35,816 nucleotides of DNA from a virus. Position 1 is the stretch's first letter, and every line of letters starts with the position of its first letter. The notes beneath the pieces are model-generated. The model was not told the origin of the DNA. It was given only the letters and a program-made list of their open reading frames with translations, and did not search any database. Of the stretch, positions 6,816-35,197 are shown in pieces. A program made the translations under genes and the position numbers. The stretch lies in the IMG/VR virus record IMGVR_UViG_3300045988_056669, positions 1 through 35,816 of that record, one strand, 5' to 3'.

Positions 6816-7181
6816 TTGAACAGATTGAAAGAATTAAGAAAAGAAAAAGGTTTAACACAAAAAAATCTTTCAAAAGAAATTGGTATCCCATTGCGAACTA
6901 TCCAAAATTGGGAAAATGGTGAAAGCCAAATTAGACCAGATAAAGCAGAAAAACTGGCAGACTTCTTCGGTGTGAGTGTCGGGTATCTACTCGGATATAG
7001 TAATAATCGAGAAGCTAAGTCGGTTGAAAAATTGGAAAGTGTATATATTGAATTTCTTGGAAATATAACATCCATAAGTGATATTGATTTAGAAGATTTA
7101 AAAGCATTTAGCAATAACATGTACGTAATGGCTATTGCTGAAAAGACAAGACGGCTTTACGAGGGTAAAAATGAGATTTGA
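6816..7181 (+). CDS. XRE-family HTH protein with a C-terminal extension. Probable TTG start (the ORF is open from 6738).
   Basis: AAGGAGG at 6799-6805 lies 10 nt before the TTG at 6816. This gives the typical XRE N-terminus (M)NRLKELRKEKGLTQKNLSKEIGIPLRTIQNWENG. Confidence 0.8.
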   Translation: MNRLKELRKEKGLTQKNLSKEIGIPLRTIQNWENGESQIRPDKAEKLADFFGVSVGYLLGYSNNREAKSVEKLESVYIEFLGNITSISDIDLEDLKAFSNNMYVMAIAEKTRRLYEGKNEI

Positions 7182-7620
7182 AATACCTATTGAACCAAAG
7201 CCGCAGTCAAGGCCACGAGCCACAATCAGAGGACGACACGCTGCAGTGTATGAAGAGCCTAAAATGATGAAGTGGCGAAAGCAGGTCACAGACTACATCA
7301 AAGAGAATTACGACGGACGCTATTTTGATGGTGCTATTCGTGTAGAAGTAACATTTTACATGAAAGCACCGCAGAGCGTGTCTAAAAAGCCGTCAGAGCG
7401 TGCGAAAGATAAAGCTAAGCAATTATATTTAAAATACATTTCAGAGCGTCTGTGGCACATTAAAAAGGCCGACGTTGACAACCTAATCAAATCACTGTTT
7501 GATAGTATTTCAAAATCTGAAATCGTTTGGTCTGACGATAATATCGTCTGTGATTTGAGAGCTAGAAAATTATATAGTCCAAATCCACGAATTGAAATCG
7601 AAATTGAGGAAATTGAATGA
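7171..7620 (+). CDS. rusA: RusA-family Holliday junction resolvase
   Basis: IPIEPKPQSRPR...VEVTFYMKAP...DVDNLIKSLFDS...WSDDNIV are RusA hallmarks. GAGGG RBS before the ATG at 7171 (the ORF is open from 7135). Confidence 0.85.
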   Translation: MRFEIPIEPKPQSRPRATIRGRHAAVYEEPKMMKWRKQVTDYIKENYDGRYFDGAIRVEVTFYMKAPQSVSKKPSERAKDKAKQLYLKYISERLWHIKKADVDNLIKSLFDSISKSEIVWSDDNIVCDLRARKLYSPNPRIEIEIEEIE

Positions 7621-8477: not shown

Positions 8478-8615
8478 TGAATTAATTATATGAGGTTTAA
8501 AATTGATTTATTATCTATACGAAGGCCATTTAGGGAGTGCATACTTTGAACTCGAGATTGACAACTATTTAAATTTCTCTGATTGGCTTTCAAATCTATA
8601 GAGACATTAGTGTTG

Positions 8616-8846
8616 ATGCACAAATTCGGCTATGAAGTCGAGAAAGAAAAATTGTACACGGTTGAGATACCTGACCCAAATTCTTATGCATCCTACAGAT
8701 ATTTGAGTAGAAATGATAATGGTATATGTATTGATGCAAGCAACAACGCTAAATGGAAGCAAAAGAGCAAAAACCAATTCACCGAATCAGAAATCAAGAA
8801 AGATTTTGCTTGGGCATGGCAGTTTGCGAAAGAGGTGGAAGAATGA
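8616..8846 (+). CDS. hypothetical protein, resembling the C-terminal part of DUF1642-type phage proteins. Start uncertain (ORF open from 8583).
   Basis: The ...KNQFTESEIKKDFAWAWQFAKEVEE ending recalls small conserved proteins of Lactobacillales phages (from memory). A short ORF at 8503-8601 in another frame may be its displaced N-terminus. Confidence 0.55.
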   Translation: MHKFGYEVEKEKLYTVEIPDPNSYASYRYLSRNDNGICIDASNNAKWKQKSKNQFTESEIKKDFAWAWQFAKEVEE

Positions 8847-9052
8847 AAAACGAAGTTTTTGTGATTGGATTAATTGTCATGCTTGCAGCGTTTATGTGTA
8901 TTGCTGTTGGCTATGACATTGGTAAACGTGAAAGCAAGTCTGAAATGACAGAATTAAAAACAAAACTCAAGCAAGCTAAAGCAAAAATTAAGCTCTTGAA
9001 AGAAAATCAAGTGATTGTGTACTATGCTGACAGTTACGGCGGTAACCCATAA
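8843..9052 (+). CDS. small membrane protein with a coiled-coil tail (69 aa)
   Basis: AGAGGTGG RBS. ATGA overlap with the upstream gene. TM segment VFVIGLIVMLAAFMCIAVGY. The longer ORF-track version (from 8753) lacks an RBS. Confidence 0.65.
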   Translation: MKNEVFVIGLIVMLAAFMCIAVGYDIGKRESKSEMTELKTKLKQAKAKIKLLKENQVIVYYADSYGGNP

Positions 9053-9086
9053 CGGTATTCGACTGGTTCGACTCCAGTCATGGGTG
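9045..9086 (+). ncRNA. tRNA-like minihelix 1: acceptor-type stem plus T-arm, with no D or anticodon arm
   Basis: ACCCAT (9045-9050) pairs with ATGGGT (9080-9085). GACTGG (9061-9066) pairs with CCAGTC (9074-9079) around the loop TTCGACT. Together these make 12 stacked bp. A 10-nt linker replaces the D and anticodon arms. Confidence 0.55.
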
Positions 9087-9190
9087 TAGGCTAGAAAATA
9101 AAATTTAAAAAAGAAAGTAGGTTCAATGATGACTGTTTCTAGTCGGCAGTCTAGAACTCCTTTGGATTTTTTTAAAAAAACTCATTCGGT

Positions 9191-9233
9191 GTCTGCAATG
9201 GTTCTTGATGTGGTTCGATTCCAAATGCAGATA
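9191..9233 (+). ncRNA. tRNA-like minihelix 2: 7-bp acceptor-type stem plus T-arm, with no D or anticodon arm
   Basis: GTCTGCA (9191-9197) pairs with TGCAGAT (9226-9232). TGTGG (9209-9213) pairs with CCAAA (9221-9225), with one G/A mismatch, around the loop TTCGATT. The linker is 11 nt. Confidence 0.5.
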
Positions 9234-9532
9234 TACCCAGAATATTTTTACATAACAAAAGGAGGAATCTCCTTCTTACAAAATTAGTATATCTGCTGGT
9301 TAGTCTACTGGGTGGCTTGCTGGCAATATAGCGAAATAAAATAGAAAAGGAAACTCAATATAATTTTTAATCTAACGCAGTTATCGCTAGCTGTTATTCT
9401 GCAAGGCGTTGCTTTTCTTATGGATAACTCAATGTTTGGGTCGTGCGCCTGCCCAAAAAGAAAAAGCCCTGCACACGCAAAGGCTTTGTGGTATGAATTC
9501 GCTATCAATATTATACCACAAGGAGCTTGAAA

Positions 9533-9943
9533 ATGAGCAAGGCATCACAATTACTTGACGAACTACAAAACCTAGACGCAGACATTCAATGCAGAATTGA
9601 TGAAGTAAGCACGCTTGAAGCCGGATTATTATCTAGTCCCAAATGGTCTACTGACAAAATTAAAGGCGGGAAACCGACAAAAGTCGACGATGTATACGCA
9701 CAGCTTATTGTTTTAAAAGAGTCAATCGAACATGACACGAACGACATTATTAATCGCAAGCTTGAATTAAGTAGATTAATCAACAAGGTATCTAATCCAA
9801 AAGAGCGAGCTATTTTACGCATGACGTACATTCTAAAACAATACCCAGAGGAAATTATGGAGCATTTAGGAATCAGCCAATCAACTTATTATCGTCTGCG
9901 CAAGCATGCAACTGAAGAAATTGATATTTTTTTAGAGTCATGA
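9533..9943 (+). CDS. sigma-70 region-4-like / ArpU- or DUF1492-type phage late transcription regulator (136 aa)
   Basis: The C-terminus KERAILRMTYILKQYPEEIMEHLGISQSTYYRLRKHATEEI is a sigma-r4-type HTH. AAGGAG lies 7 nt before the ATG at 9533. Positioned just upstream of the packaging and structural genes. Confidence 0.8.
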   Translation: MSKASQLLDELQNLDADIQCRIDEVSTLEAGLLSSPKWSTDKIKGGKPTKVDDVYAQLIVLKESIEHDTNDIINRKLELSRLINKVSNPKERAILRMTYILKQYPEEIMEHLGISQSTYYRLRKHATEEIDIFLES

Positions 9944-10089: not shown

Positions 10090-10115
10090 AGCACCGATTG
10101 GTGCTTTTCTATTTT
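10090..10115 (+). terminator. second hairpin plus T-tract, immediately before the RBS of the next gene
   Basis: AGCACC-GATT-GGTGCT followed by TTTCTATTTT. GGAGG is at 10117-10121. Confidence 0.5.
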
Positions 10116-10124
10116 GGAGGGAAT

Positions 10125-10814
10125 ATGCAAATTGTCGAAAAGGAATTGACGTGGTTAAAACCATATGCGAATAATCCACGAGATAATGAAAGTGCAGTCG
10201 AACCAGTTGCAAATTCAATAAAAGAATTTGGGTTCAAAGTCCCAATCGTTGCAACGTCTGATGGTGAGATTATCAACGGACACACTCGTTTTAAAGCCTC
10301 TAAGTTGTTAGGACTCAAAAAAGTTCCAGTTATTATTTCAGATGATTTGACAGAAGAACAAATCAAAGCTTTTCGCTTAGCCGACAACAAAACTGGCGAG
10401 CTTGCAGATTGGAACGAAGAGCTACTTGCAAAAGAATTGGAAAAGCTTGATTTTAACTTAGAGCAATTCGGTTTTGAAAAGTTAGCAGATGAGTTCGACG
10501 AAGAAGATAACGAAGAAGACCCTTACACATCAAAGATAACTACACCAACATACGAGCCAACAGGCGAAGAAGTGTATCTACAAGACTTAGTGGACACCAC
10601 AAAGCGGGACGAATTGATTCGTAAAATTCAAACTGCTGATATCCCAAGCGATATCGAAGAATTTTTAAAGAATGCAGCTCAAAGACACTTACGTTTTAAT
10701 TATAGAAACATTGCTGAATATTATGCTAGCGCTCCAAAAGAAGTGCAAGAGCTTTTTGAAGACAGCGCACTGGTGATTATAGATTACAACAAAGCAATTG
10801 AAAACGGATATTGA
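10125..10814 (+). CDS. ParB/Srx N-terminal-domain protein (229 aa) with an uncharacterised C-terminal half
   Basis: LKPYANNPRDN...VANSIKEFGFKVPIV...IINGHTRFKASKLLGLKKVPVII...AFRLADNK is a ParB-like nuclease-domain signature. GGAGG RBS before the ATG at 10125 (the ORF-track start at 10098 lies inside a hairpin). Confidence 0.8.
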   Translation: MQIVEKELTWLKPYANNPRDNESAVEPVANSIKEFGFKVPIVATSDGEIINGHTRFKASKLLGLKKVPVIISDDLTEEQIKAFRLADNKTGELADWNEELLAKELEKLDFNLEQFGFEKLADEFDEEDNEEDPYTSKITTPTYEPTGEEVYLQDLVDTTKRDELIRKIQTADIPSDIEEFLKNAAQRHLRFNYRNIAEYYASAPKEVQELFEDSALVIIDYNKAIENGY

Positions 10815-10844
10815 AACTAACAGAAGCAATCGAGAGTATGATTT

Positions 10845-11717
10845 ATGATGATGACAAAATTTGATAAGTACAAAGATGATTTTGCTGTATTTATATTAAG
10901 CCACGGCAGACCTGATTCAGTGCATACTCTAAAAACAATGGAAAAAGGAAACTACACAGGTAAGTGGTATATCGTCATAGATAACGAAGACAAGCAAGCA
11001 GATGAGTATTACAAGAAGTACGGAAAAGAACATGTAAAAATGTTTGACAAATTGGCCATTTCCAAAACTTTTGATACTGCAGATTTGTCACAGGAAAGAC
11101 GAGCTATAGTATACGCTAGAAACGCTTGTTTCGATATAGCTAAAGAAATAGGCTTGAAATATTTCGTCGAGTTTGATGACGATTATACGTCGTTTGGTTT
11201 CAGATACCCTAAAGATGGGAAACTGGTTCAAAAATCATGTGATAATCTAGATGACGTATTCGCATTGATGCTTGATTTTTTAATAGATTCTAACGCTTTG
11301 ACAGTGTGTATGTCGCAAGGCGGAGACCACATCGGAGGACTCAACGGAAATTGGCGCAAGTCTTTGTTGCGAAAAGTCATGAATAGTTTCTTTTGCAGGA
11401 CAGATAGACCATTTCAATTTTTGGGTAGAGTAAACGAAGACGTAAATACTTATACTTATTTAGGAAGCCAAGGCCATTTGATGTTTACAGTGACAGATAT
11501 TATGCTTAATCAGTTGCAGACACAATCAAATGCTGGAGGCATGACAGATCTTTATTTAGATGGTGGAACTTATCTCAAATCTTTCTATACAGTACTTTTT
11601 ATGCCTAGTGCAGTAACCGTTCAACCGATGGGAACCGCTCATAAGCGTTTGCATCACAATGTTGATTGGGAATGCTGTGTGCCTAAGATATTATCAGAAG
11701 AATTAAAACAAACATAA
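10845..11717 (+). CDS. hypothetical protein, possibly a GT-A-fold glycosyltransferase-like enzyme (290 aa)
   Basis: N-terminal strand FAVFILSHGRPD. Acidic DxD-like motif YFVEFDDDY. The fold assignment is a motif impression only. Confidence 0.7.
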   Translation: MMMTKFDKYKDDFAVFILSHGRPDSVHTLKTMEKGNYTGKWYIVIDNEDKQADEYYKKYGKEHVKMFDKLAISKTFDTADLSQERRAIVYARNACFDIAKEIGLKYFVEFDDDYTSFGFRYPKDGKLVQKSCDNLDDVFALMLDFLIDSNALTVCMSQGGDHIGGLNGNWRKSLLRKVMNSFFCRTDRPFQFLGRVNEDVNTYTYLGSQGHLMFTVTDIMLNQLQTQSNAGGMTDLYLDGGTYLKSFYTVLFMPSAVTVQPMGTAHKRLHHNVDWECCVPKILSEELKQT

Positions 11718-16202: not shown

Positions 16203-16207
16203 ATTCT

Positions 16208-16294
16208 GGAAGATTACTCAAGTGGTTAAGAGAACAGGTTGCTAACCTTGTAGGCGTGTGAAAGCGTGCGAGGGTTCGAGTCCCTCATCTTCCG
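16208..16294 (+). tRNA. tRNA-Ser (anticodon GCT), type II with a long variable arm. The anticodon stem has one extra T (a bulge).
   Basis: Acceptor GGAAGAT/ATCTTCC. D-arm CTC-AAGTGGTTAA-GAG. Anticodon loop TTGCTAA. Variable arm GCGTG-TGAAAG-CGTGC. T-arm GAGGG-TTCGAGT-CCCTC. The 3' strand of the anticodon stem reads CCTTGT where CCTGT is expected. Confidence 0.85.
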
Positions 16295-16468
16295 TTGACT
16301 TGGCTGGTCGTTAAATAAGCCAAATAAACATCACTAGCGTGGCTTGTTAAGTCCTGAATAGAATTACATTAAATAGAGACTAGAGGGCGTGAGACGTCCG
16401 TTCTCGTGGCTCTATGAATGCGCTGGAAATTTAGGGTGACACAAGACTAGCATGGGAGGAATTAGAAA

Positions 16469-32980: not shown

Positions 32981-33174
32981 AAAAATATTTTGAAAAATTG
33001 GGGCTCAAAGTTTTAAAAACCATGACGCAATCAGCTGTCGGCGTCATCGGTGCCAGCACGTTAATTAGTCAAGTCGATTGGAGAGTGGTTATTTCAACCA
33101 CTTTTCTTTCTGGACTTGTTTGTGTGTTATCTAATCTTTCCAATTTAAAGGAGGAAAACGTCGATGAGGATTAA
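32977..33174 (+). CDS. putative holin (65 aa, two hydrophobic segments, acidic C-terminus)
   Basis: ATGA coupling to the upstream gene. It overlaps the endolysin start. Hydrophobic segments [11 protein letters not shown] and [15 protein letters not shown]. The tail is EENVDED. Confidence 0.7.
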
Positions 33175-34438
33175 ACGACTTTTGGCAGGTGCACTTTTAA
33201 GTATTAGCCTATTATTGCAGTCTACAGCTTATGCAGCTGTCGGTGATCAAGGTGTAGACTGGTCTCGTTATCAGGGCGCTAACGGTGTCTTTGGTTACAG
33301 TCATGACAAGTTTGCCATTATCCAGATTGGCGGTGTTAACGGCGGTGGGATTTACAAACAATCAACATATGAAACGCAAGTGGCGTCAGCAATTGCACAA
33401 GGCAAACGTGCTCATACTTACATTTGGTATCAAGTTGGTAGCAACGCAAGTCTTGGTGAGCAAGTCTTAAATACATTCTTGCCACAGGTTCAAACACCTA
33501 AAGGCTCAATCGTAGCGCTTGACTATGAAAGCGGCGCTAGCCCTGATAAGCAAGCGAATACCAATGCTATTCTTCATGGTATGCGTATGATTAAAGCGGC
33601 AGGTTACACACCAATGTATTACAGTTACAAGCCTTTCACGTTAGCTAACGTGTACACAGACCAGATTATCCGTGAGTTCCCTAATTCGCTTTGGATGGCT
33701 GCGTACCCAAGTTACAATGTAACTCCAACACCGAATTATGACGTCTTTCCAAGTATGGACGGTGTAGCAATTTACCAATTCACTTCAACATATATTGCAG
33801 GCGGTCTTGACGGTAATGTGGATTTAACTGGCATTACAGATAATGGTTACACTAAGAACAACAATCCACAAACACAAACTCCAGCAATCAATCAAGGACA
33901 ACAAGCAGATAATGCACCTAAGTCTGACATTACTGCAGGCAATCAAGTAAAAGTCAAATTTAGCGCTAGCACATGGGCAACCGGTCAAGGTATTCCATCT
34001 TGGGTTAAAGGTCGCACATATAGCGTAGCTCAAGTAAACGGCAATCGTGTATTGCTAGCTGGTATCAATTCATGGATTAATAAATCAGACGTTGAAATTA
34101 TTTCAGTTTCATCTGCGCCAATTCAAGCGCCAGCAACTAGCACGTACACAGTACGTTCTGGTGACACACTTTCAAGCATTGCTGCCAAATTTGGAACAAG
34201 CTATCAAACGTTAGCAAGTTTGAATGGTATTTCAAATCCTAACCTTATTTATGTTGGCCAAGTCTTACGCGTTAACGGTTCAGCAAATGCAGGTTCAGTT
34301 TACTACACAGTACGTGTTGGCGACAACTTGTCAGCTATTGCTAGCCGTTATGGTACAAGCTACCAATCAATCGCAGCATTGAACGGTCTAGCCAACCCAA
34401 ACTTGATTTACGCAGGTCAAACGCTTAAAGTTAAATAA
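33164..34438 (+). CDS. endolysin: N-terminal signal peptide, GH25 muramidase, SH3-like segment and two LysM repeats
   Basis: [26 protein letters not shown] (n, h and c regions with AYA). [11 protein letters not shown] is a GH25 motif. Two copies of YTVR.GD.LS.IA..YGTSYQ..A.LNG...PNLIY.GQ.L.V (LysM). AAGGAGG RBS. Confidence 0.92.
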
Positions 34439-34563: not shown

Positions 34564-35197
34564 TTATCGCAAATTTAAAACAGCTAACTAAATAATTTAG
34601 TGAAGATTGTTTGACAGCATGCTAAAGTTATACGCTTAATAGCTCGTTACACTAACGGTGGGATACTGTCGTTAGATAAGTAATCAATCTTTGATTGTTG
34701 CGAAGTGAAAGAATAGCAAGAGTGCGTGTGACGTGGAGGATATGTGTAACTAGGCTAAATTTAAACGGTGGTGGCGATAATAGACGTCTCTGTGAGAAAT
34801 AATCCTGCAAGCCCAAGCTTGACCACTTGAAGCAAGTAGGAAGTTGTCAAAATAAGCCATTGTGCGCATTGACGAGTTAAAAGCTCGTTGCTTACACCAA
34901 AAAATTGTACAAGTAGCCCAAAAGCGCAAGTGATAAATTGCAGATATTGTCAAATATTTACGTTTCTGAACGTCTGGTGAACGTTGAAGGTAACCAGTCC
35001 TGTCTAGTCATTGAACCTCTTAGGAAGTTGTGAGGTAGCTCCTCACGGCTCAGACCTAAGACGACTATCAGCTAATAAGTTGCATATATTTGAAGCAGAG
35101 CGAAGGCTCATTTAGTTAGTTGTTTTAAATTTGTGATAAATCCATACTCCTGAGGGGATATGTGATAGGGGCTAACATTTTGTTAGCTCTTTTTTTG
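34564..35197 (+). ncRNA. Large (about 630 nt) structured non-coding RNA candidate, closed by a 30-bp terminal helix. Possibly of the ROOL/GOLLD class of ornate phage RNAs, or a new class.
   Basis: No + strand ORF of 60 aa or more in 34439-35346. It has its own promoter and terminator. 34564-34593 pairs with 35110-35139 (28 Watson-Crick plus 2 G.U, the latter only valid for + strand RNA). Many internal helices. Confidence 0.7.
35168..35196 (+). terminator. intrinsic terminator ending the large RNA
   Basis: GGGGCTAACA-TTT-TGTTAGCTCT stem followed by TTTTTT. Confidence 0.8.

What the first reader, a model, noticed from the sequence alone, without database searches (positions are those of the whole stretch)
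9045..9233. Two tRNA-like minihelices (acceptor stem plus T-arm only) in a 480-bp non-coding island
Two elements of about 42 nt lie 146 nt apart. Each folds into 12 coaxially stackable base pairs with a canonical T-loop.

Element 1: ACCCAT (9045-9050) pairs with ATGGGT (9080-9085), and GACTGG pairs with CCAGTC around TTCGACT.

Element 2: GTCTGCA (9191-9197) pairs with TGCAGAT (9226-9232), and TGTGG pairs with CCAAA around TTCGATT.

In both, a 10-11 nt linker takes the place of the D-arm, anticodon arm and variable loop. A simple attP-type tRNA 3' fragment would not carry the complementary 5' acceptor strand, yet both elements do. That makes chance or simple truncation less likely.

Minihelices of this form are known in vitro substrates for RNase P, the CCA-adding enzyme and some aminoacyl-tRNA synthetases. 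Hypotheses: (a) they are processed, CCA-tagged small RNAs acting as decoys for host tRNA-targeting defence nucleases or for tRNA-modifying or CCA-adding enzymes; (b) they are processing punctuation for the early transcript; (c) they are deletion remnants of two tRNA genes.

The rest of the island (9053-9532) has no credible ORF. It contains mutually exclusive pairings: GGCTAGAAA (9089-9097) or CTAGAA (9151-9156) can each pair with TTTCTAGTC (9136-9144). It also contains the AAGGAG/CTCCTT hairpin at 9259-9274.
Basis: partly seen in the sequence, partly recalled or inferred. Interest (0 to 1): 0.75.

Follow-up and report, generated by a model that had tools for sequence, protein, structure and literature searches.

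The report
Conserved tRNA-like minihelices in phage RNA
Two 42-nt copies of just the upper half of a tRNA sit in a non-coding stretch of a Streptococcus phage; they belong to a conserved, apparently undescribed RNA family that most likely tells the host's tRNA-trimming enzymes where to cut a long phage transcript.

Summary
They are not chance and not recent tRNA wreckage.

- **Conservation.** Related Streptococcus bovis/equinus-group phages carry 1-4 such elements at the same locus. None carries a full tRNA there.
- **Shape.** All keep a 12-bp acceptor/T stack through compensatory changes. They also share a canonical T loop, a 10-14-nt linker with a near-invariant GGT, no encoded CCA, and an invariant T after the discriminator.
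- **Position.** The first element abuts or overlaps the stop codon of whatever early gene precedes it.
- **Downstream domain.** Each element is followed 2-5 nt later by a covarying pseudoknotted RNA domain. The island is therefore a modular structured + strand RNA, absent from Rfam 15.
- **Best explanation (confidence about 0.5).** These are t-element-like signals for RNase P and RNase Z. They punctuate the early transcript and release the downstream RNA domains and a CCA-taggable minihelix.
- **Alternatives.** A trans-acting decoy role or a purely structural role is not excluded.
- **Wider occurrence.** Similar minihelices lie between tandem genes in haloarchaea.
- **Novelty.** New variant of a known kind.

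The parts
8843..9052 (+). Last early ORF (69 aa, small membrane protein). Its stop codon TAA 9050-9052 lies inside minihelix 1.
   Evidence: weak DUF2273 match. In relatives, the stop codon of various unrelated upstream ORFs lies from +5 to -6 nt relative to the minihelix start in 27 of 44 contexts.
9045..9086 (+). Minihelix 1. Acceptor stem 9045-9050/9080-9085. Linker 9051-9060 (AACGGTATTC, with the conserved GGT). T arm 9061-9066/9074-9079. T loop TTCGACT 9067-9073. Discriminator G9086, followed by T9087.
   Evidence: Sequence. The MFE fold equals the minihelix. Covariance model R1 gives 59.8 bits. Orthologues found by BLAST carry compensatory T stems: GACTGG/CCAGTC, GGTCGG/CCGACC and GACCTG/CAGGTC.
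9089..9176 (+). Module B, a pseudoknotted domain. Strand X, GGCTAGAAA 9089-9097, pairs with loop TTTCTAGTC 9136-9144. Hairpin P2 is 9131-9135/9147-9151. Helix P3 is GGTTC 9120-9124 with GAACT 9154-9158. A T-rich run follows at 9161-9176.
   Evidence: Alignment A3: all 5 P2 pairs covary, P3 has 2 covarying pairs, and the pseudoknot is 95.6% paired, with changes on one side only. The variant GCCCAGA/TCTGGGC at the same offset in L075/L076 covaries.
9191..9233 (+). Minihelix 2. Acceptor stem 9191-9197/9226-9232. Linker 9198-9208 (ATGGTTCTTGA). T stem 9209-9213/9221-9225 with one G.A mismatch. T loop 9214-9220. Discriminator A9233, followed by T9234.
   Evidence: R1 gives 51.4 bits. Positional equivalents carry different stems: ACCCGTG/CACGGGT (L001), AGTCACA/TGTGACT (L004), ATCTGTG/CACAGAT (L106) and GCTCGTG/CACGAGT (L065).
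9235..9323 (+). Module D, a pseudoknotted domain. ACCCAG 9235-9240 pairs with CTGGGT 9308-9313, which lies in the loop of hairpin 9296-9302/9317-9323. The module also holds the SD-like/anti-SD-like hairpin AAGGAG..CTCCTT 9259-9274.
   Evidence: Alignment A2: the pseudoknot helix is 100% paired and 5 of 6 pairs covary (ACCCAG/CTGGGT, ACCCGA/TCGGGT, GCCTAG/CTAGGC, AACCAG/CTGGTT). RNAalifold result.
9377..9455 (+). Two further covarying hairpins of the same RNA. One is GCAGT 9377-9381 with GCTGT 9390-9394, with the conserved loop TTATCRSTMG. The other is TGGGT 9437-9441 with GCCCA 9451-9455.
   Evidence: 98% and 97% paired, with 5 and 3 covarying pairs. Frequent G.U pairs show that the + strand is the folded strand.
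9455..9482 (-). GC-rich hairpin (9467-9482) followed by a T run on the minus strand, with an A run before it on the + strand. It looks like an intrinsic terminator for the minus strand and is perhaps bidirectional.
   Evidence: It is conserved in all DUF1492 loci, including those without minihelices.
9488..9525 (.). Inverted repeat GTGGTAT 9488-9494 / ATACCAC 9513-9519. It overlaps promoter-like hexamers: TTGTGG-17-TATTAT on the + strand, and an extended -10 TGGTATAAT on the minus strand (reverse complement of 9510-9518). The Shine-Dalgarno AAGGAG is at 9520-9525.
   Evidence: Read directly from the sequence. The repeat covaries in relatives, for example GATATGAT/ATCATATC. Function is inferred only.
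9533..9943 (+). DUF1492-family HTH protein (RinA/ArpU-like putative late-gene regulator). It is the first gene downstream of the structured island.
   Evidence: Pfam PF07374, E 4.5e-39. It was used to fetch 36 related loci.

Best explanation
The two elements belong to a conserved family of tRNA acceptor-branch minihelices, functionally like 't-elements'. They are transcribed on the + strand as the tail of the phage early operon.

**Shown**
- Each element presents a 12-bp acceptor/T stack capped by a canonical T loop.
- The linker carries a conserved GG(T).
- No CCA is encoded, and a U follows the discriminator.
- Each element is followed within 2-5 nt by a covarying pseudoknotted domain.
- The first element sits on the stop codon of the preceding gene.

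**Inferred**
- Host RNase P cuts at the 5' end of each minihelix. In this window that is inside the last two codons of the upstream ORF, so the stop codon would be removed.
- RNase Z cuts after the discriminator.
- The long transcript is thereby cut into three kinds of product: (i) early mRNA; (ii) free minihelices of about 42-45 nt that the CCA-adding enzyme can tag; (iii) downstream structured RNAs (module B, and module D onward).
- The 5'-monophosphate ends of those downstream RNAs would be tucked into a pseudoknot and so shielded from 5'-to-3' decay by RNase J1.
- The linker GG probably mimics G18/G19 of the D loop. It would complete the tRNA 'elbow' that RNase P, RNase Z and the CCA-adding enzyme measure against.

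The minihelices would therefore act as processing punctuation at the boundary between early genes and the late-gene regulator. They set the ends, and so the stability or activity, of the non-coding RNA modules and possibly of the regulator's mRNA.
For: **Homologous positions**
- Copies found by BLAST, not by structure, show compensatory T-stem and acceptor-stem changes.

**Alignment of 22 distinct copies**
- 99.6% of cells are paired, and 11 of 12 pairs change on both sides.
- The covariation score is 0.83, against 0.25 for shuffles and at most 0.14 for slid registers.

**Selection independent of structure**
- Anchoring on the downstream modules alone finds a minihelix ending 2-5 nt upstream. 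This holds for 14 of 16 module-B contexts at the 11-of-12-pair threshold, and for the other two at 10 of 12 pairs. It also holds for all 25 module-D anchors that passed the threshold; the other 21 matches of that loose pattern lay mostly in unrelated DNA. In control 62-mers from the same loci the rate was 5 of 400.

**No tRNA at the locus**
- No relative has a full tRNA upstream of the DUF1492 gene.

**Conserved tRNA-branch features**
- The 12-bp length is kept as 7+5, as 6+6, or as a linker-less 12-bp hairpin.
- The GGT in the linker is at least 90% conserved, and the T after the discriminator is invariant.
- The phage's own tRNA-Ser is likewise CCA-less with a T after its discriminator, so it uses the RNase Z route.

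**Position relative to genes**
- The stop codon of diverse upstream ORFs lies from +5 to -6 nt relative to the first minihelix.

**Downstream domains**
- They covary, including pseudoknot helices that start 2-5 nt after the minihelix.

**Independent occurrence**
- Haloarchaeal minihelices of the same build sit in spacers of roughly 100 nt or less between co-oriented camelysin-like paralogues.

**Precedent**
- Plant-mitochondrial and Haloferax t-elements are cut by RNase P and RNase Z. In plant mitochondria the released t-elements carry non-encoded C, CC or CCA (PMC1920247; PMC4326828).
- Minihelices are established in vitro substrates of RNase P, RNase Z and the CCA-adding enzyme (my own knowledge, not checked here).
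Against: - There are no expression or end-mapping data, so cleavage is entirely inferred.
- The strong conservation of GGT and of the exact T loop exceeds what a bare cleavage signal needs. It would fit a binding or decoy role equally well.
- Cutting upstream of the stop codon would create a non-stop mRNA, which looks costly. It does have precedent in plant mitochondria.
- Part of the covariation statistic is circular, because the sequences were first picked by a pairing scanner. Many of the sequences are also closely related.
- More distant DUF1492 loci lack the whole cassette. It is therefore dispensable for regulator expression as such.
Confidence: 0.5

Rival explanations
1. The released (or independently stable) minihelices are themselves the functional product. 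After CCA addition they would act in trans as acceptor-branch mimics. They could be decoys or competitive inhibitors for host factors that read the acceptor stem, T arm and CCA end. Candidates are tRNA-tail-targeting immunity such as Cas12a3, nucleotidyltransferase or pyrophosphokinase toxins, or the CCA-adding and modification enzymes.
For: - Features beyond a minimal cleavage signal are conserved: an exact T loop, GGT in the linker and a 12-bp stack.
- There are 1-4 copies per phage with diversified acceptor stems.
- Acceptor/T-arm/CCA-directed immunity exists. It still cleaves truncated tRNA substrates that retain the acceptor stem and CCA tail, even after the D, T and anticodon arms are removed stepwise (PMC12851939).
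- Released plant t-elements are stable and carry added C/CC/CCA (PMC1920247).
Against: - The elements have no promoter of their own, and a decoy would need to be abundant.
- The commonest acceptor sequence (ACCCAYA, A1-U72) matches no obvious host tRNA identity set.
- The tight coupling to a downstream structured domain and to a stop codon is not explained.
- No defence or anti-defence gene context was found.
Confidence: 0.15
2. The minihelices are uncleaved architectural modules of one large cis-acting RNA, either the leader of the DUF1492 regulator gene or the trailer of the early operon. The T-loop/GG 'elbow' would act as a docking platform for another RNA part or for a protein (ribosome, RNA polymerase or a phage factor). 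This would form part of an attenuation, antitermination or translational switch that times expression of the late regulator.
For: - The whole 480-nt island is a mosaic of covarying helices and pseudoknots.
- T-rich runs follow module B, and a terminator-like hairpin precedes the regulator gene.
- A conserved anti-SD-like CACTCCTTCTTAC can pair either with a local SD-like AAGGAGG or with the regulator's own SD.
- T-loop motifs are common structural modules in large RNAs (my own knowledge).
Against: - A pure structural module would not need a 12-bp tRNA-length stack, an unpaired discriminator followed by U, or placement on a stop codon.
- The number and order of minihelices vary freely between phages, from 1 to 4. 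That argues against one fixed tertiary architecture.
- Haloarchaeal copies stand alone in short spacers with no partner domain.
Confidence: 0.2
3. The elements are decaying remnants of tRNA genes, or tRNA 3' fragments left by integrase att-site recombination. On this view they have no present function, or they act only at the DNA level (attP, an origin, or ssDNA hairpins).
For: - The locus also hosts other tRNA-like oddities. One is an 80-nt class-II tRNA-like element with a 4-nt 'anticodon' loop in Javan288.
- Genuine tRNAs lie downstream of the regulator gene in relatives. An evolutionary origin from tRNA genes is therefore plausible.
- Partial tRNA genes are common in prokaryote genomes (PMC9897764).
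Against: - The same truncated form is kept across diverged phages by compensatory substitutions in both helices.
- The 5' acceptor strand is always present.
- G.U pairs and the T-loop orientation single out the + strand RNA.
- No ORF of at least 150 aa lies on the minus strand of the window, and no integrase-like gene lies near the island.
- Linker-less variants still keep exactly 12 bp.
Confidence: 0.05

Closest known systems
t-elements (tRNA-like processing signals) of plant mitochondria and of Haloferax volcanii
   Same: - They are non-tRNA RNAs with a conserved T arm (GGTTCRANYCC) and an acceptor-like stem, embedded in longer transcripts next to gene ends.
- They are cut 5' by RNase P and 3' by RNase Z, which defines the ends of neighbouring RNAs.
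- Some lie inside reading frames, and the released element receives C/CC/CCA (PMC1920247; PMC4326828).
   Different: - Described t-elements are mostly imperfect cloverleaves. Here there is a uniform minihelix in which one 10-14-nt GGT-containing linker replaces the D arm, anticodon arm and variable region.
- The host here is a Firmicute phage.
- Each element is coupled to a downstream pseudoknotted domain.
- I could not read the primary Haloferax papers (Holzle 2008/2012), so the exact shape of those elements was not compared.
Synthetic acceptor-T-arm minihelices used as model substrates of RNase P, RNase Z, the CCA-adding enzyme and some aminoacyl-tRNA synthetases
   Same: They share the 12-bp coaxial acceptor/T stack with a T loop. 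The linker-less variants in L011/L020 are literally such hairpins.
   Different: Those substrates are laboratory constructs. The elements here are natural and conserved, and most carry a bulged linker with GGT. They lack the G3:U70 identity pair for alanine (my own knowledge of the biochemistry).
mascRNA/MALAT1-type tRNA-like elements, herpesvirus tRNA-miRNA units, and engineered tRNA-gRNA arrays
   Same: A tRNA-like module recruits RNase P and RNase Z to release or define an adjacent functional RNA. The tRNA-like piece itself is CCA-tagged.
   Different: These are eukaryotic or engineered, and they are cloverleaf-shaped. No sequence relationship exists.
tRNA-like domain of tmRNA
   Same: It has an acceptor stem plus a T arm, with a D-loop analogue but no D stem and no anticodon arm.
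   Different: - In tmRNA the two acceptor strands are separated by about 300 nt of pseudoknots and a tag reading frame.
- It carries G3:U70 and an encoded or added CCA.
- ARAGORN finds no tmRNA here, and position 3:70 is C-G.
Partial tRNA genes at integrase att sites
   Same: They share a tRNA T arm and a 3' acceptor strand found in a prophage.
   Different: Those fragments lack the complementary 5' acceptor strand and sit at prophage ends next to an integrase. Here the 5' strand is present and covaries, and the locus is internal, at the early/late gene boundary.

Membership tests
t-element (tRNA-like processing signal) | tRNA-like acceptor stem plus a T arm with the T-loop consensus, without being a decoding tRNA | tested here: met
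   ARAGORN and the Rfam tRNA model are negative.
t-element (tRNA-like processing signal) | Embedded in a longer transcript directly at gene or RNA boundaries | tested here: met
   The element abuts or overlaps the upstream stop codon. A structured domain starts 2-5 nt downstream. No convincing promoter of its own was found. Co-transcription is inferred, not measured.
t-element (tRNA-like processing signal) | Cleaved by RNase P at the 5' end and by RNase Z at the 3' end, in vitro or in vivo | not testable with these tools
   Only indirect evidence: a 12-bp stack, no encoded CCA and an invariant T after the discriminator, the same as in the phage's own CCA-less tRNA-Ser.
tRNA gene or recent tRNA pseudogene | D arm and anticodon arm present, or intact tRNAs at the orthologous site in relatives | tested here: not met
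   A 10-14-nt linker replaces them in all copies. No tRNA lies upstream of the DUF1492 gene in 40 related loci.
attP/attB tRNA 3' fragment | Only the 3' part of a tRNA, next to an integrase or at the prophage end, with no complementary 5' strand | tested here: not met
   The 5' strand is present and covaries. The locus lies between the RusA/DUF1642 early genes and the DUF1492 regulator, about 2.7 kb upstream of the terminase.
tmRNA tRNA-like domain | G3:U70, a tag reading frame and pseudoknots between the acceptor strands | tested here: not met
   Position 3:70 is C-G or U-A. Only 10-14 nt separate the strands. ARAGORN finds no tmRNA.
Any Rfam 15 family (including tRNA, Y RNA/YrlA, ROOL) | Match to a curated covariance model | tested here: not met
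   No hit better than E 0.36, or above 18.7 bits, in window 8800-9700. No meaningful hit across the four-minihelix cassette of L073. ROOL occurs elsewhere in the window.

The most novel reading that the evidence does not exclude
Phages of this group manufacture CCA-ended mimics of the tRNA acceptor branch, about 45 nt long and lacking an anticodon, as functional small RNAs. These would titrate or mislead host factors that recognise the tRNA elbow, acceptor stem and CCA end: tRNA-tail-targeting immune nucleases or toxins, or tRNA maturation enzymes. The adjoining pseudoknotted domains would be a new class of exonuclease-resistant phage non-coding RNAs released by the same cuts.
Probability: 0.12. 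Interest if true: 0.88.

Novelty: new variant of a known kind. Interest (0 to 1): 0.7.

Why it matters
**If correct**
- This would be a clear natural bacterial-virus case of tRNA-like 'punctuation'. The phage would borrow the host's universal tRNA-trimming enzymes, RNase P and RNase Z, to cut a polycistronic transcript and release defined non-coding RNAs. That logic is known from mitochondria, haloarchaea and engineered tRNA-gRNA arrays.

**What it adds already**
- It defines an unannotated RNA family, namely the minihelix plus at least two covarying pseudoknotted domains. The family sits at the early/late switch of a group of Streptococcus prophages, next to the putative late-gene regulator.
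- It gives sharp, cheap predictions: exact cleavage coordinates and CCA-tagged species of about 45 nt.

**Possible further uses**
- The minihelix is a compact natural processing tag that could be useful for multiplexed RNA expression in Firmicutes.
- If the minihelices act in trans, the finding bears on the arms race around tRNA-targeting immunity.

Tried and rejected
- **tRNA and tmRNA calling.** ARAGORN finds only tRNA-Ser at 16207-16295 in the window and nothing at the locus in relatives.
- **Rfam.** The gathering and permissive E-value searches gave only noise at the island.
- **Loose structural scan of the window.** It produced many AT-rich false positives. Only the two reported elements have a canonical G53/T-loop/C61.
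- **First genome-wide IUPAC patterns.** They were too loose: most of the 120+ hits were chance, so I filtered them with the covariance model. A stricter pattern that includes the 3' strand gave 11 true stretches.
CTAGAA 9151-9156 with TTCTAG is rejected. Relatives with CTGAGG at that position have no matching change in the loop, whereas the nested hairpins P2 and P3 covary.
- **Reading the island as coding.** Rejected. It holds only short ORFs that overlap on both strands, relatives differ by indels, and substitutions preserve base pairing.
- **CRISPR-repeat mimic idea for hairpin 9467-9482.** Rejected, because the loop and stem are not conserved in sequence across relatives.
- **Literature searches (six of ten used).** I searched for phage or Firmicute minihelices, t-elements and truncated tRNAs. 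No description of this family turned up.
- **Primary Haloferax t-element paper (PMC2327364).** It is not held, and the papers that cite it give no sequence.
- **More distant DUF1492 loci (58-68% identity).** They lack the cassette altogether.
Full report
**Setting**

The window is most of a temperate Streptococcus siphophage or prophage of the S. bovis/equinus group.
- BLAST of 8840-9560 finds only 'Javan' prophages of S. macedonicus, S. gallolyticus, S. equinus, S. infantarius and S. pasteurianus. The best is Javan288, at 87.8% identity over 94% of the query.
- Upstream of the island are early genes: RusA at 7135-7620, a DUF1642 protein at 8583-8846, and a 69-aa membrane protein at 8843-9052.
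- Downstream is a DUF1492 helix-turn-helix protein at 9533-9943, a RinA/ArpU-like putative late regulator. It is followed by a ParB_N protein, a TET-associated glycosyltransferase and the terminase.
- All ORFs of at least 150 aa are on the + strand.

**The observation**

- Element 1 (9045-9086) folds by minimum free energy into exactly the proposed 6+6-bp minihelix with T loop TTCGACT (-14.5 kcal/mol, z = -2.2).
- Element 2 (9191-9233) has a 7-bp acceptor stem, but its T stem TGTGG/CCAAA contains a G.A mismatch. The orthologue in contig L070 has CCACA and pairs perfectly.
- ARAGORN and Rfam see no tRNA here.

**Comparative evidence**

*Close relatives.* The four closest GenBank relatives were located by sequence similarity, not by structure.
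- All carry element 1 at the same place, with compensatory T stems: GACTGG/CCAGTC, GGTCGG/CCGACC and GACCTG/CAGGTC.
- At the position of element 2 they carry minihelices with quite different acceptor stems: ACCCGTG/CACGGGT and AGTCACA/TGTGACT.

*Loci fetched through the DUF1492 protein.* I fetched 36 IMG/VR loci this way.
- The 16 closest relatives (87-100% identity) have 1-3 minihelices upstream of that gene wherever that region is held.
- None of the 40 loci has a real tRNA there. Real tRNAs occur only downstream.

*Alignment of 22 distinct copies (A1).*
- The T-loop positions are invariant, and a GGT in the linker is at least 90% conserved.
- The T after the discriminator is invariant, and no copy encodes CCA.
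- For the 12-pair structure, 99.6% of cells pair and 11 of 12 pairs change on both sides.
- The covariation score is 0.83, against 0.245 for shuffled partners and at most 0.14 for slid registers.

*Control for circularity.* Those sequences were first collected with a pairing scanner, so I made a check that does not depend on the minihelix itself. I anchored only on the sequence of the downstream modules.
- A minihelix ends 2-5 nt upstream in 14 of 16 module-B contexts at the 11-of-12-pair threshold. The other two contexts reach 10 of 12.
- The same is true of all 25 module-D anchors that passed the threshold. The other 21 matches of that loose pattern lay mostly in unrelated DNA.
- In random 62-mers from the same loci the rate is 5 of 400.

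*Covariance model R1.*
- It hits the window only at the two reported places, at 59.8 and 51.4 bits.
- It finds 68 copies in 47 IMG/VR loci, with up to four per phage.
- Some terminal copies are linker-less hairpins of exactly 12 bp capped by a T loop. The tRNA-branch length is therefore what is conserved.

**The island is one modular structured RNA**

- *Module D.* From the last minihelix to the DUF1492 start codon, 18 sequences align (A2). The six nucleotides that begin 2-3 nt after the discriminator (ACCCAG 9235-9240) pair with the loop (CTGGGT 9308-9313) of a hairpin about 70 nt downstream. This pseudoknot helix is 100% paired and 5 of 6 pairs covary (ACCCGA/TCGGGT, GCCTAG/CTAGGC, AACCAG/CTGGTT).
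- *Further hairpins.* Three more hairpins covary as well. Frequent G.U pairs identify the + strand as the folded strand.
- *Module B.* The spacer between the two minihelices (9089-9176) has the same logic. GGCTAGAAA pairs with the loop TTTCTAGTC of a hairpin whose stem covaries at all five pairs. A further helix encloses it, and a T-rich run follows.
- *Repeat unit.* The repeat unit is therefore [minihelix]-[2-5 nt]-[pseudoknotted domain]. Phages differ in how many units they carry; L073, for example, has four.
- *Databases.* Nothing in Rfam 15 matches any part of it.
- *Distant relatives.* More distant DUF1492 loci lack the cassette. They keep only the A-run/GC hairpin and the TATTATATCATA-SD region directly before the gene.

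**Position relative to genes**

- The first minihelix of each locus sits on the stop codon of whatever ORF precedes it. In 27 of 44 distinct contexts the stop lies between +5 (inside the element, as in this window) and -6 nt, although the upstream proteins differ.
- No convincing promoter precedes the elements, so co-transcription with the early operon is the natural reading.

**Outside this phage group**

- A strict pattern that includes both acceptor strands finds only 11 stretches in 185,579 species genomes. They are Streptococcus prophages, two MAG contigs with the same cassette, one Aureimonas, and four haloarchaea. A fifth haloarchaeon, Halorubrum distributum (L172), carries a GGTGGGC variant that the looser scan found.
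- In the two haloarchaeal loci I examined (L162, L172), the minihelix lies in a short spacer between co-oriented camelysin/TasA-like paralogues. One 8-kb Halonotius stretch holds three copies.
- Because the search pattern fixed ACCCAYA..GGT, shared ancestry with the phage elements cannot be claimed. The between-cistron context is still informative.

**Mechanism**

*Features.* The conserved features are the ones the tRNA end-processing machinery reads:
- a 12-bp acceptor/T stack;
- an intact T loop with a possible G18/G19 mimic that completes the elbow;
- an unpaired discriminator;
- no CCA, and a U at position 74.

The phage's own tRNA-Ser has the same CCA-less, U74 3' context.

*Precedent.* RNase P and RNase Z are known to cut such t-elements in plant mitochondria and Haloferax. 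They define mRNA and small-RNA ends there, sometimes inside reading frames, and the excised element receives C/CC/CCA (PMC1920247; PMC4326828).

*Proposal.* I therefore propose cuts at 9044/9045 and 9190/9191 by RNase P, and at 9086/9087 and 9233/9234 by RNase Z. The proposed products are:
- the early mRNA;
- two minihelices that the CCA-adding enzyme could tag;
- module B and module D-onward RNAs, whose new 5'-monophosphate ends are buried in pseudoknots. That arrangement would resist RNase J1.

All cleavage steps are inferred and none is shown. My confidence is about 0.5.

**Rival explanations**

- *Trans-acting decoy (0.15).* The minihelix itself could be the product, for instance a decoy for acceptor- or CCA-directed immunity. 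[quoted passage not shown]
- *Uncleaved structural part (0.2).* The minihelices could be architectural parts of a riboregulator that controls the late regulator. In favour are T runs after module B, a terminator-like hairpin at 9467-9482, and an anti-SD-like CACTCCTTCTTAC that can pair with the regulator's SD.
- *Functionless tRNA debris or DNA-level sites (0.05).* Two-sided compensatory change, strand-specific G.U pairs and the constant 12-bp length all contradict this.

**Novelty and limits**

- t-elements and in vitro minihelix substrates are known.
- I did not find the following described, either in Rfam or in six full-text searches restricted to open-access papers:
  - a conserved natural family of anticodon-less minihelices with a GGT linker;
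  - tandem coupling of such minihelices to pseudoknotted domains;
  - placement at the early/late boundary of Firmicute phages.
- I rate it a new variant of a known kind, interest 0.7.
- Limits: no expression data; many sequences are closely related; the covariation controls are not probabilities; I could not read the primary Haloferax t-element papers.

Noticed in passing
window 34572-35128 (+): A full-length ROOL RNA (Rfam RF03087, 242.5 bits, E 3e-54) lies just downstream of the GH25+LysM endolysin gene (33164-34438), near the end of the prophage.
   Followed up: partly
window 9455-9518 (minus strand): A perfect extended -10 (TGGTATAAT, reverse complement of 9510-9518) is followed about 30 nt later by a minus-strand intrinsic terminator (hairpin 9482..9467 plus a T run). 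This could encode an antisense small RNA of about 50 nt just upstream of the DUF1492 gene's ribosome-binding site. Both features are conserved even in distant DUF1492 loci that lack minihelices (L022-L039). A + strand promoter, TTGTGG-17-TATTAT, overlaps the same sequence.
   Followed up: partly
window 9259-9280 and 9520-9525: The conserved sequence CACTCCTTCTTAC resembles the 3' tail of 16S rRNA (the anti-SD). This may be a translational switch or a 'STAB-SD'-type stabiliser.
   Followed up: partly
L001 (Javan288) 1899-1978; similar elements at about 3023-3068 in L024, L028, L031, L033, L036 and L037: An 80-nt class-II tRNA-like element with an acceptor stem, a variable arm and a T arm, but a 4-nt 'anticodon' loop (CCUG-AAAU-CAGG). 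ARAGORN does not call it. In Javan288 it sits directly after the second minihelix. In other phages it lies downstream of the regulator gene, next to real tRNA-Phe, tRNA-Lys or tRNA-Ser genes.
   Followed up: partly
L162 4616-4656 (-), L172 2421-2472 (-), L201 (three copies), L208 1284-1324, L239 5693-5734: Haloarchaea (Natrialbaceae, Halorubrum, Halonotius, Haloarculaceae) carry ACCCACA..GGT..T-arm..GGTGGGT minihelices. In the two loci examined (L162, L172) these lie in short spacers between tandem camelysin/TasA-like secreted-protein genes. They are probably t-elements that punctuate those operons.
   Followed up: partly
window 10098-11717 (+): A ParB_N-domain protein and a TET-associated glycosyltransferase (PF20691, E 1e-39) lie between the late regulator and the terminase genes. 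This suggests that the phage hypermodifies its DNA.
   Followed up: no
window 16207-16295 (+): The phage tRNA-Ser(GCU) has no encoded CCA, and a T follows its discriminator (..CTTCCG|TTGAC). This is the same 3' context as in the minihelices.
   Followed up: yes
L057 10637-10677 (171-kb viral contig), L086 4687-4727, L118 13367-13416, L220 2936-2977 (Aureimonas): Isolated minihelices of the same build occur in unrelated viral contigs and in one alphaproteobacterium. In L118 the element starts on the stop codon TAA of one ORF and ends 15 nt before the next ATG.
   Followed up: no
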